44,077 nucleotides of DNA from an uncultured Candidatus Saccharibacteria bacterium (lineage in GTDB: Bacteria > Patescibacteriota > Minisyncoccia > Minisyncoccales > 2-12-FULL-40-12): positions 1-44,077 of the forward strand of contig CAYJRW010000001.1 in NCBI GenBank assembly GCA_964372865.1, written 5' to 3'. The first letter of the stretch is position 1; each line of letters begins with the position of its first letter. Positions 15,259 through 16,884 of this stretch are shown piece after piece. A program made the position numbers and the translations under genes. The notes under the pieces were generated by a model. That model worked only from the letters and a program-made list of their open reading frames with translations, was not told where the DNA came from and made no database searches.

Positions 15259-15609
15259 TTATTTTACTAATTCTATTATGGCCATTCTTGCGCCATCTAA
15301 CTTTCTCTGGCCCAACTTTATGATTCTGGTATATCCTCCTTTTCTATCTTTGTATCTTGGAGATATTTCCGCGGCCAATTTTTTAACAACTGGCGCGGAA
15401 AAAAAAGAGTGCAACGCTCTTTGAGCCGATAAGTTACCGAGTTTAGCTCTGGTAATTTGTTTTTCGGCAAATCCTGAGAGTTCTTTTGCTCTGGCCCAAG
15501 TTGTTCTAATTTTTTCTTTCAAAAAAAGAGACGTCGCCAAAGTTCGCAAAAGCGCCTTCCTCTGGTTTCTCTTTCTACTTAGCCTTCTTCCTTTTTTTAG
15601 TTTTCGCAT
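15259..15609 (-). CDS. rplQ: 50S ribosomal protein L17
   Basis: 116 aa: MRKLKKGRRLSRKRNQRKALLRTLA...GGYTRIIKLGQR. Confidence 0.95.
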   Translation of the reverse strand: MRKLKKGRRLSRKRNQRKALLRTLATSLFLKEKIRTTWARAKELSGFAEKQITRAKLGNLSAQRALHSFFSAPVVKKLAAEISPRYKDRKGGYTRIIKLGQRKLDGARMAIIELVK

Positions 15610-16369
15610 GTTTTTTAGGGTTTTTGGGGGCTGTCTTCTTTTTCTTTAAAGAGGGTTCCGGCTCAGGAATTTTTTCTGCCATTTTGAAGTTTTCAGCCAG
15701 AAGCGAAAAATGAGAAACCAAGATTTCGCTTGCTTTGAAAAAAGCAGCTTCCGGAGTTATTGTGCCGTCTGTCTCTACTTCCAAAAAGAGCCGGTCATAG
15801 TCGGTTCTTTCTCCAACCCTCATATTTTCTACTCTAAAGCCGACTTTTCTTGTGGGTGTGAAAATTGCATCCAAAGGTATTGCGCCTATTTCCAATTTTT
15901 CTCGCGCTTTTCTTGTCTCTCTTGACCTGTAGCCCAACCCTCTTTCAATTGTTATTTCCATATCAAGCTCAGCTGATTTTGAAGTCAAAGTGGCAATGTG
16001 CGCTGATTTATTCAAAAGTTCGACCTGGGGAGGCAGTTTAAAATCAGAGCCCTTGACTTCTTTTTCTCCTTTAATTTTGAGGGTTGCATTTTGGGGATCT
16101 TTAACATAAGCTTTAAACCTCAGCTGCTTAAGATTTAACATTATTGAAACAACGTCCTCTAAGATGCCCGGAATCGTTGAAAATTCGTGCGCTACACCTT
16201 TTATTTTCATCTGGGTGACAGCTGCTCCTTCCAAAGAAGAAAGCAAGACCCTTCTTAGAGAATTTCCAATGGTCACACCGTAACCTGGGTAAAGGGCTTC
16301 TATCTCGAAAACGGCTTTATTTTTATCTTTTTCTATAACTTTTGGTTTTGCTGGTAGTGTTACCATCAT
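15575..16369 (-). CDS. rpoA: DNA-directed RNA polymerase alpha subunit, N-terminal domain only, with a Lys-rich tail
   Basis: 264 aa. The NTD motifs GNSLRRVLLSS and VENMRVGERTDYDRLFLEVETDG are present. It ends in SLKKKKTAPKNPKKHAKTKKRKKAK and overlaps rplQ by 35 nt. Confidence 0.92.
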   Translation of the reverse strand: MMVTLPAKPKVIEKDKNKAVFEIEALYPGYGVTIGNSLRRVLLSSLEGAAVTQMKIKGVAHEFSTIPGILEDVVSIMLNLKQLRFKAYVKDPQNATLKIKGEKEVKGSDFKLPPQVELLNKSAHIATLTSKSAELDMEITIERGLGYRSRETRKAREKLEIGAIPLDAIFTPTRKVGFRVENMRVGERTDYDRLFLEVETDGTITPEAAFFKASEILVSHFSLLAENFKMAEKIPEPEPSLKKKKTAPKNPKKHAKTKKRKKAK

Positions 16370-16884
16370 CTTGAATAATACTCAAATATTACTGGAATTT
16401 CAACGGGGGGAGAGGCCTCCTCGAGATTAGGCCTGCCCAAAACTTTTCCTTCCAATTTTTCAATATCAAGCTCAAGCCAGGATGGGGGTTTTTGTTTTTT
16501 GAGCTGCGGTATAATATTCTGGAAAATGCTTTTTTTTGTGCTTTTTTCCTTCGGCCTGACAACATCGCCTTTTTTGGTCTCATACCCCGGGATATTGATT
16601 GGTTTTCCGTTGACCAAAAAATGGCCGTGCGACACCAATTGTCTGGCTTGCTCTCTGGTTTGAGCCAGACCCAAGCGGAAAACAACATTATCCAAACGGC
16701 TCTCCAGGGCATTGATTAGAGAAGTCAAATCTTGCGCATTTTTTATATATCTGCGAAGTTGTGCTTCTCTTAAATTATACAAATTTTTTAATTTTTGCTT
16801 TTCCTGTAATTGTTTTCCGTATTCAGAAAGAGCCCTCGGTCTCCTTCTGCCTTTTTGTCCCGGGAAGGTAGTTGTTGTAACCAT
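16366..16884 (-). CDS. rpsD: 30S ribosomal protein S4 (short, 172 aa)
   Basis: LESRLDNVVFRLGLAQTREQARQLVSHGHFLVNGK is the S4 domain. Confidence 0.93.
   Translation of the reverse strand: MVTTTTFPGQKGRRRPRALSEYGKQLQEKQKLKNLYNLREAQLRRYIKNAQDLTSLINALESRLDNVVFRLGLAQTREQARQLVSHGHFLVNGKPINIPGYETKKGDVVRPKEKSTKKSIFQNIIPQLKKQKPPSWLELDIEKLEGKVLGRPNLEEASPPVEIPVIFEYYSR

What the first reader, a model, noticed from the sequence alone, without database searches (positions are those of the whole stretch)
15575..16369. RNA polymerase alpha subunit lacks the C-terminal domain and ends in a lysine-rich tail overlapping rplQ
The ORF is 264 aa. After the NTD, which ends around SEILVSHFSLLAENF, only about 35 residues remain (KMAEKIPEPEPSLKKKKTAPKNPKKHAKTKKRKKAK). 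The L17 gene starts 35 nt before the rpoA stop, so there is no room for the roughly 80-aa alpha-CTD. The alpha-CTD mediates UP-element recognition and class I activator contacts. Its replacement by a histone-tail-like basic segment suggests non-specific binding to AT-rich DNA and a very different regulatory logic.
Basis: partly seen in the sequence, partly recalled or inferred. Interest (0 to 1): 0.6.

Follow-up and report, generated by a model that had tools for sequence, protein, structure and literature searches.

The report
RNA polymerase alpha without its C-terminal domain
This tiny uncultured bacterium (Parcubacteria/Nealsonbacteria group) has an RNA polymerase alpha subunit that lacks the regulatory C-terminal domain and ends in a lysine-rich tail; the domain is essential in model bacteria, yet it has been lost repeatedly in this lineage.

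Summary
rpoA (15575-16369, minus strand) encodes 264 aa: a complete alpha N-terminal domain (residues about 1-228) and a 36-aa tail with net charge +13. Its last 35 nt overlap rplQ. No alpha-CTD is detectable anywhere in the 587-kb, 92%-complete genome, with either Pfam or an order-specific profile.

It is not an artefact. Of the 120 nearest homologues, 118 come from independent assemblies and show the same NTD-only form. One closed Nealsonbacteria genome has the same form.

In a 151-genome sample of the order, 90 genomes (about 60%) lack the alpha-CTD, and all of their rpoA frames are short. A tree of alpha-NTD plus L17 needs at least 10 well-supported state changes (27 by parsimony). About 10% of genomes across Patescibacteria also lack the domain.

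Within the order, truncated alphas repeatedly carry K-rich tails (median 38 aa, +13), whereas the linkers of CTD-bearing relatives are near neutral (18 aa, +1). However, some truncated alphas have no tail, and tails in other orders are not basic. The tail is therefore not an obligatory substitute for the CTD.

[quoted passage not shown] I found no report of its extent, its recurrence, the polybasic tail or the overprinting on rplQ. The proposed DNA-binding role of the tail is inference only.

The parts
15575..16369 (-). rpoA, 264 aa, encoding an alpha subunit that consists of the N-terminal domain plus a basic tail
   Evidence: ORF. PF01000 E 1.2e-30 and PF01193 E 4e-23, with no PF03118. TIGR02027 scores 253 bits against a cut-off of 227.8, matching model positions 2-228 of 298. 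It is the only PF01000 hit in the genome.
15686..16369 (-). Alpha N-terminal domain (residues 1-228): the dimerisation and beta/beta' assembly platform
   Evidence: Aligns to solved alpha subunits over query residues 8-226, equal to E. coli alpha 10-233. The RR pair at residues 39-40 is invariant in the alignment. In the AF2 model the last NTD helix spans 206-227.
15647..15685 (-). Residues 229-241 (KMAEKIPEPEPSL): remnant of the inter-domain linker
   Evidence: Collinear with the linker start of CTD-bearing homologues P0099 (FKKPEKAPEEK...) and P0116.
15611..15646 (-). Residues 242-253 (KKKKTAPKNPKK): polybasic core of the tail, coded by rpoA alone
   Evidence: The sequence varies among more than 100 homologues, but K+R stays at 0.35-0.55. 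The tail DNA is 51% A. pLDDT is below 50 from residue 241.
15575..15610 (-). Residues 254-264 (HAKTKKRKKAK) plus the stop codon: the segment dual-coded with the first 12 codons of rplQ
   Evidence: Sequence. The conserved ending ...KKHAKxKKRKKxK in homologues corresponds to the L17 N-terminus MRKLKKGRRLSR read in the other frame. The same -35/-32 overlap occurs in 38 truncated relatives.
15259..15609 (-). rplQ (L17), 116 aa, starting 35 nt before the rpoA stop
   Evidence: PF01196 E 8e-33, matching from residue 20 to profile position 1. ORF.
16366..16884 (-). rpsD (S4), upstream neighbour, overlapping the rpoA start by 4 nt; the conserved rpsM-rpsK-rpsD-rpoA-rplQ context
   Evidence: ORFs. PF01479 and PF00163.

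Best explanation
This is the organism's single, intact rpoA. It encodes an alpha subunit reduced to the N-terminal domain, which dimerises and scaffolds beta and beta' into core RNA polymerase. The C-terminal domain was deleted in an ancestor of a large Nealsonbacteria/Minisyncoccales clade. That deletion left the reading frame to run 35 nt into rplQ.

This polymerase therefore cannot use alpha-CTD/UP-element contacts or class I (alpha-CTD-dependent) activators, so promoter use must rest on sigma and the core enzyme. That much is shown, or follows from established knowledge of alpha.

The rest is inferred. The domain became dispensable because these about 0.6-Mb symbiont-type genomes have very few activators, which is why it has been lost many times in the order. 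The disordered lysine-rich tail (+13) most likely gives a weak, sequence-independent electrostatic contact with upstream DNA, or another polyanion. This would partly replace the non-specific DNA tether that the alpha-CTD normally supplies. The tail is helpful rather than essential.
For: Domain content is established. No alpha-CTD is found in six frames of the whole genome with Pfam (E<=10) or with an order-specific HMM (best E 0.6). rpoA is single-copy.

The truncation is real and shared. 118 of 120 nearest homologues are NTD-only, 249-287 aa. 90 of 151 genomes in the order lack PF03118, and every such genome has a short rpoA frame of 232-301 aa, against 303-370 aa in CTD-bearing genomes. The closed genome CP179887.1 has a 263-aa rpoA with the -35 overlap.

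The loss is recurrent. The tree needs 27 changes, of which at least 10 are forced by well-supported branches, against a shuffled mean of 45.8. 8 of 79 families are mixed. 18 alpha-CTD-negative genomes from other classes also have short rpoA frames.

On the tail: it is the most basic C-terminus in the proteome. Tails have a median of 38 aa and +13, against linkers of 18 aa and +1. The independent-pairs sign test gives p about 0.008. The tail is disordered in the AF2 model.

On activator poverty: OmpR-type regulators occur in 10 of 151 genomes. The own genome has one full sigma70 and one fragment.

From the literature: alpha-NTD suffices for assembly and basal transcription (cited in PMC8321222). 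The alpha-CTD is essential in E. coli and B. subtilis (PMC4495994).
Against: The genome is 92% complete, so a stand-alone alpha-CTD gene on missing DNA is not strictly excluded for this organism.

Against a tail function: tail-less truncated alphas exist (G343 1 aa, G375/G419 2 aa, G418/G372/G362/G410/G354 5-6 aa). Tails in other Patescibacteria orders are neutral or acidic. About half of this tail's charge lies in the rplQ-overprinted segment. Simulated frameshifts in the purine-rich linkers of relatives already give a net charge of +6 or more in 33-57% of cases.

Activator poverty is shared by CTD-bearing relatives, so by itself it does not explain which lineages lost the domain.
Confidence: 0.85

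Rival explanations
1. The tail has no function of its own. It is what remains of the K/E-rich inter-domain linker plus read-through into the A-rich 5' end of rplQ after the CTD was deleted. Its basicity reflects purine-rich DNA and the constraint from L17 coding, not selection on alpha.
For: The terminal 11 residues are fixed by the rplQ frame. Tail sequences are not conserved apart from that segment. Tail-less alphas exist. Tails in other orders are not basic. Simulated +1 frameshifts in relatives' linkers give a net charge of +6 or more in 57% of cases. The tail DNA is 51% A.
Against: Truncated lineages without any rplQ overlap also have basic tails (38 tails, median +12). Tails are twice as long as the linkers and have lost the acidic residues (E 0.11 against 0.27), while keeping the linker-like K-over-R bias of 0.92. 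Simulated frameshift products have a K/(K+R) of only 0.39-0.69. Composition is held across more than 100 homologues whose tail sequences are scrambled. Of 10 independent pairs, about 7.6 go in the same direction and 0 in the opposite direction. The tail is the most basic C-terminus of 532 ORFs.
Confidence: 0.35
2. The alpha-CTD function is retained but encoded separately, as a split alpha, on DNA missing from this 92%-complete assembly or in a form too divergent to detect.
For: Small stand-alone alpha-CTD-like ORFs exist in relatives. G421 has an NTD-only rpoA plus a 131-aa ORF (L256 2596..2991), and G301 has one at L257 2058..2441. One alpha-CTD-negative genome of another family (L253) has a 64-aa tail that looks like a divergent CTD.
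Against: There is no hit in the own genome at E<=10 with Pfam, and the best E is 0.6 with an order-specific HMM run with filters off. Closed or single-contig genomes with truncated rpoA (G422 = CP179887.1, G328) also have no PF03118 match. 90 of 151 genomes cannot all be missing the same gene by chance.
Confidence: 0.04
3. Sequencing or assembly artefact: a frameshift or misassembly has truncated a normal rpoA.
For: The tail contains A-runs (A7), which are error-prone. Read support could not be examined.
Against: rplQ follows immediately, so no CTD-coding DNA exists in any frame. The same architecture appears in 118 of 120 nearest homologues from JGI, ENA, NCBI and Logan assemblies, in 89 of 147 genomes of the order, and in a complete genome.
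Confidence: 0.01

Closest known systems
Alpha-CTD-less alpha subunits of extremely reduced insect endosymbionts (Hodgkinia, Tremblaya), with a one-sentence mention for Parcubacteria (Rangel-Chavez et al. 2021, PMC8321222)
   Same: A bacterial RpoA that retains the NTD (dimerisation and beta/beta' binding) and lacks the CTD, in organisms with tiny genomes and few regulators. The inferred consequence is the same: no UP-element or class I activator use.
   Different: Here the loss is documented in a free-standing episymbiont-type lineage at large scale: 60% of one order, at least 10 independent events, and about 10% of the phylum. The CTD is replaced in this order by a 30-45-aa polybasic tail that is partly overprinted on rplQ. 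None of this is in the paper. The reference it cites for Parcubacteria (Nelson & Stegen 2015) does not mention RNA polymerase in its main text.
Canonical bacterial RpoA (E. coli, B. subtilis, Thermus; TIGR02027 / PRK05182)
   Same: The NTD is collinear with E. coli alpha 10-233. The RR motif is invariant. The gene is single-copy and sits in the rpsM-rpsK-rpsD-rpoA-rplQ operon.
   Different: It lacks the roughly 85-aa linker plus helix-hairpin-helix CTD that is essential for viability in E. coli and B. subtilis (PMC4495994). Laboratory alpha(1-235) truncations assemble and support basal transcription only (cited).
Archaeal Rpo3(D)/Rpo11(L) and eukaryotic Rpb3/Rpb11 assembly platform
   Same: Works like these: an alpha-NTD-type platform with no DNA- or activator-binding C-terminal domain.
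   Different: It is not a member. The archaeal subunit D model scores 21 bits against a cut-off of 153. This protein is a homodimer-type bacterial alpha.
Lysine-rich disordered tails on bacterial DNA-binding proteins (for example the mycobacterial HupB C-terminal tail and actinobacterial topoisomerase I lysine repeats; from my own knowledge, not tested here)
   Same: A disordered, K-dominated (K/(K+R) 0.92), proline- and alanine-spaced C-terminal extension on a DNA-transacting protein.
   Different: There is no repeat unit or sequence homology, and DNA binding by this tail is not demonstrated.

Membership tests
Bacterial RNA polymerase alpha subunit (RpoA) | N-terminal dimerisation domain (PF01193) with inserted domain (PF01000) | tested here: met
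   PF01193 E 4.1e-23 (residues 27-221) and PF01000 E 1.2e-30 (55-171). Aligns to solved alpha chains at E 2e-59.
Bacterial RNA polymerase alpha subunit (RpoA) | C-terminal helix-hairpin-helix domain (PF03118, alpha-CTD) | tested here: not met
   No PF03118 hit in the protein at E<=1. None in six frames of the genome at E<=10. An order-specific CTD HMM gives a best E of 0.6. Only 36 residues follow the NTD.
Bacterial RNA polymerase alpha subunit (RpoA) | Equivalog-level score to curated rpoA models | tested here: met
   TIGR02027 scores 253.2 bits (cut-off 227.8) and NF003519 scores 277.7 (cut-off 277). Other PRK05182 sub-models fall below their cut-offs because the CTD part is missing.
Bacterial RNA polymerase alpha subunit (RpoA) | Single essential copy in the rpsM-rpsK-rpsD-rpoA-rplQ operon | tested here: met
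   Gene order. It is the only PF01000 hit in the genome.
Naturally alpha-CTD-less alpha subunits (Hodgkinia / Tremblaya / Parcubacteria type) | Intact NTD, no CTD in the gene, and none elsewhere in the genome | tested here: met
   The literature definition is in PMC8321222.
Naturally alpha-CTD-less alpha subunits (Hodgkinia / Tremblaya / Parcubacteria type) | The truncated protein is assembled into a working RNAP | not testable with these tools
   This is inferred from three facts: the gene is the only rpoA, its NTD is strongly conserved (61% mean column identity, invariant RR), and the form persists across hundreds of genomes.
Archaeal Rpo3 (subunit D) | Score above the family cut-off | tested here: not met
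   NF001988 scores 21.3 bits against a cut-off of 153.
Polybasic DNA-binding tails (histone-tail-like) | Disordered, strongly net-positive segment | tested here: met
   Net charge +13 over 36 aa. pLDDT below 50 for residues 241-264. Rank 1 of 532 C-termini.
Polybasic DNA-binding tails (histone-tail-like) | Demonstrated binding to DNA | not testable with these tools
The comparative evidence is mixed.

The most novel reading that the evidence does not exclude
In Nealsonbacteria/Minisyncoccales the alpha-CTD has been replaced repeatedly and convergently by a disordered polylysine tail. This tail would act as a sequence-independent upstream-DNA tether for RNA polymerase. That would be a minimal, activator-free solution, and it would explain how these bacteria survive without a domain that is essential in model organisms.
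Probability: 0.3. Interest if true: 0.7.

Novelty: new variant of a known kind. Interest (0 to 1): 0.5.

Why it matters
The alpha-CTD is described as conserved throughout bacteria and is essential in E. coli and B. subtilis (PMC4495994). It is the contact point for UP elements and for many activators.

A large natural set of bacteria has discarded it at least ten separate times within one order. Close relatives that still have it sit in the same families. This gives a ready-made comparative system for three questions:
- What makes the domain dispensable.
- What promoters look like without it.
- Whether a simple polybasic tail can stand in for its non-specific DNA contact.

It also matters for annotation, because short rpoA genes in Patescibacteria MAGs are real and not fragments. 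And it matters for anyone building expression tools for Patescibacteria.

Tried and rejected
I replaced it with population and closed-genome evidence.

2. 'Split' rpoA in G390 and G331: the apparent separate CTD frames are caused by masked N runs in the linker (X runs), so they are not real splits.

3. Horizontal spread of the truncated allele: own-family members G380 and G423 (CTD-bearing) do not group with G000 and G305 in the alpha-NTD+L17 tree. An AU test does not reject family monophyly (p 0.36), so there is no evidence for transfer. The full-size AU test did not finish in 575 s; a 48-row subset was used instead.

4. Neutral frameshift origin of basic tails: simulation shows that shifted linkers are often basic. 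However, they are arginine-rich and shorter than real tails, so this explains the tails only in part.

5. Correlation with OmpR-type activators: the family is nearly absent from the whole order, whatever the CTD state, so the test is uninformative.

6. General proteome habit of K-rich C-termini: rejected. Only 2% of ORFs reach 40% K+R in the last 30 aa, and RpoA ranks first.

7. Literature: four searches combining alpha-CTD with CPR, Patescibacteria or Parcubacteria terms found nothing or only PMC8321222 and its preprint. Nelson & Stegen 2015, cited there, holds no statement on RNAP in its main text. Its supplements were not checked.

Full report
**What is in the sequence**

The minus strand of the window carries rpsM, rpsK, rpsD (16366-16884), rpoA (15575-16369), rplQ (15259-15609) and rplM. 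The rpoA ORF is 264 aa.

Pfam finds the alpha dimerisation domain (PF01193) and the insert domain (PF01000) with strong scores, but no alpha-CTD (PF03118) even at E<=1. NCBIfam rpoA equivalogs match only their first ~230 positions. Solved alpha subunits align to residues 8-226, which correspond to E. coli alpha 10-233.

After ...SHFSLLAENF, 36 residues remain (KMAEKIPEPEPSLKKKKTAPKNPKKHAKTKKRKKAK). The rplQ ATG lies inside the codons CAT-GCG of this tail, so the two genes overlap by exactly 35 nt. The L17 protein aligns to its family from the first residues, so the rplQ start is correctly placed.

**Is it an artefact, or is the CTD encoded elsewhere?**

The window belongs to a 586,583-bp, 57-contig genome estimated to be 92% complete. 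rpoA is the only PF01000 hit.

A six-frame search with PF03118 finds nothing at E<=10, while the same search detects all ten bacterial control genomes. I then built a CTD profile from 13 CTD-bearing relatives of the same order and searched all six frames with filters off. The best hit was E 0.6, which is noise. No frame downstream of the NTD can hold a CTD, because rplQ follows directly.

- Of the 120 best homologues (68-85% identity; JGI, ENA, NCBI and Logan sources), 118 are 249-287 aa and carry only the two NTD domains. Two (P0099, 311 aa; P0116, 306 aa) carry a CTD.
- The relatives are named Candidatus Nealsonbacteria, Parcubacteria, Minisyncoccales or Paceibacterota.
- One relative is a complete 689,429-bp genome (CP179887.1 = G422). 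It has a 263-aa rpoA and the same 35-nt overlap, and it is not among the PF03118-positive genomes.

The truncation is therefore real.

**How widespread is it, and how often did it happen?**

Across 301 genomes of the phylum, 271 have an alpha-CTD and 30 do not. Within the window's order, only 61 of 151 genomes have one, while 149 of 151 have a single alpha-NTD.

Open-frame lengths are bimodal: 303-370 aa where a CTD is detected and 232-301 aa where it is not. I fetched 147 rpoA loci and classified them: 89 truncated, 58 CTD-bearing.

A maximum-likelihood tree of alpha-NTD plus L17 (343 columns) needs 27 changes of state. Well-supported branches alone force at least 10. Shuffled labels need 45.8 on average and never fewer than 39. 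Eight of 79 taxonomic families contain both states. These include the window's own family: G000 and G305 are truncated, G380 and G423 are full-length. An AU test does not reject monophyly of that family (p 0.36).

The CTD is present in about 90% of the phylum and in all other bacteria checked, so these changes are best read as repeated losses. Eighteen alpha-CTD-negative genomes from other classes of the phylum also have short rpoA frames of 261-301 aa.

**The tail**

In this genome the tail is the most K/R-rich C-terminus of 532 long ORFs. AlphaFold2 predicts it to be disordered: pLDDT is below 50 for residues 241-264, and the last NTD helix spans 206-227. The tail has three parts:
- A short Pro/Glu-containing stretch that is collinear with the linker of CTD-bearing homologues.
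- A polylysine core.
- An 11-residue end (HAKTKKRKKAK) that is the alternative-frame reading of the basic L17 N-terminus (MRKLKKGRRLSR).

That end is conserved as ...KKHAKxKKRKKxK in close homologues because of the rplQ constraint.

Long overlaps (-23 to -41 nt, all in the same relative frame) occur in 44 of 89 truncated genomes and in none of the 58 CTD-bearing ones. They rarely differ between members of the independent CTD/truncated pairs (about 1 of 10), so they are not a repeated accompaniment of truncation. This points to one old deletion in the window's lineage.

Across the order:
- Linkers of CTD-bearing alphas are near-neutral polyampholytes: median 18 aa, K+R 0.31, D+E 0.29, net +1.
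- Tails of truncated alphas have a median of 38 aa, K+R 0.46, D+E 0.13, net +13.
- Truncated genes without any overlap are basic too: median +12 for tails of 9 aa or more.
- In 10 phylogenetically independent CTD/truncated pairs, the truncated partner has the more basic segment in about 7.6, the reverse in 0 (sign test p about 0.008).

**Caveats on tail function**

- Some truncated alphas end 1-7 residues after the NTD (G343, G375, G419, G418, G372, G362, G410, G354, G404).
- Alpha-CTD-less alphas of other Patescibacteria orders have neutral or acidic tails.
- I tested a neutral origin. Shifting the frame inside the purine-rich linkers of CTD-bearing relatives gives tails with net charge +6 or more in 57% (+1 frame) or 33% (+2 frame) of trials. 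Those products are arginine-rich (K/(K+R) 0.39-0.69) and shorter. Real tails are lysine-dominated (0.92), like real linkers (0.95), but with glutamate reduced from 0.27 to 0.11.

The tails therefore look like in-frame linkers that were lengthened and stripped of acidic residues. This favours some selection for positive charge within this order, but it does not prove it.

**Mechanism**

Shown or firmly grounded:
- This is the only alpha.
- Its NTD is well conserved, including the invariant RR pair that corresponds to E. coli R44/R45 (the residue correspondence is from my own knowledge of the E. coli sequence).
- Alpha-NTD alone suffices for core assembly and basal transcription in E. coli (literature cited in PMC8321222).

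It follows that UP-element recognition and alpha-CTD-dependent activation cannot operate here.

Inferred:
- The domain is dispensable because regulation is minimal. OmpR-type regulators occur in only 10 of 151 genomes of the order, in both CTD states. The own genome has one full sigma-70-family gene and one fragment.
- The tail supplies non-specific electrostatic contact with upstream DNA. I give this about one chance in three. The main rival, a non-functional by-product, gets about the same.

**Comparison with what is known**

The alpha-CTD is reported as essential in E. coli and B. subtilis, and alpha is described as well conserved throughout bacteria (PMC4495994). Natural loss has been described for Hodgkinia and Tremblaya. 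One sentence in the same paper says the loss 'is also present in Parcubacteria' (PMC8321222). The reference it cites contains nothing on RNA polymerase in its main text.

Four searches combining alpha-CTD with CPR, Patescibacteria or Parcubacteria terms found no other paper. So the bare fact of CTD loss in this group is known. The following appear to be undescribed:
- Its scale: 60% of an order and 10% of the phylum.
- Its recurrence: at least 10 events.
- The convergent polybasic tail.
- The overprinting on rplQ.

I therefore file it as a new variant of a known kind, of moderate interest.

Noticed in passing
L256 2596..2991 (-) (G421:C2, between fusA and tuf); L257 2058..2441 (-) (G301:C4): These are small stand-alone proteins (131 and 127 aa) whose C-terminal half is an alpha-CTD-like helix-hairpin-helix (PF03118 E 5e-11 and 2e-15). 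The N-terminal parts are unrelated; the G301 one is Cys-rich and looks like a zinc ribbon. G421 combines such a protein with an NTD-only rpoA, so it may be a trans-acting alpha-CTD. G301 has it in addition to a full-length rpoA.
   Followed up: partly
window 15575-15609: The rpoA/rplQ overlap contains an A7 run (CTAAAAAAAGG). rplQ is in the +1 frame relative to rpoA, so slippage there would fuse alpha to L17. There is no evidence that this happens, and the run is explained by the L17 codons for KLKKG.
   Followed up: no
window 16366-16884 (-): rpsD encodes a short S4 (172 aa). The Pfam S4 N-terminal model matches only positions 37-82 of 95, so the usual N-terminal ~35 residues appear to be missing. 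rpsD overlaps the rpoA start by 4 nt (ATGA).
   Followed up: no
L253 (G184:C12, family f21, another order of the phylum): This rpoA has a 64-aa C-terminal segment (…LDLPEDLVAILEKNEVTTMDQLEDKRDELNDFAGITSKHIKQIEKLLDA). It looks like a strongly diverged alpha-CTD that PF03118 misses. Other f21 genomes give only weak PF03118 hits (E about 1e-3), so some 'CTD-negative' calls outside the order may be divergence rather than loss.
   Followed up: no
L056 (G390) and L086 (G331), linker region of rpoA: Runs of N (read as X) sit exactly in the low-complexity K/E linker of these relatives and make rpoA look split. They are masked or unresolved sequence, not gene fission.
   Followed up: partly
G317:C23:3158-3235 (relative, family f142): A weak PF03118 match (E 3.7e-4, model positions 7-32) lies in a 43-aa frame with an internal TGA, in a genome whose rpoA is truncated. 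It could be a decaying remnant of an alpha-CTD or of a stand-alone copy.
   Followed up: no
G000:C44:3235-3405: The second Sigma70_r2 hit in the own genome lies in a frame of only 70 aa. It is either a fragment at a contig edge or a degraded second sigma gene. Only one full-length sigma (403-aa frame, C11) was seen.
   Followed up: no
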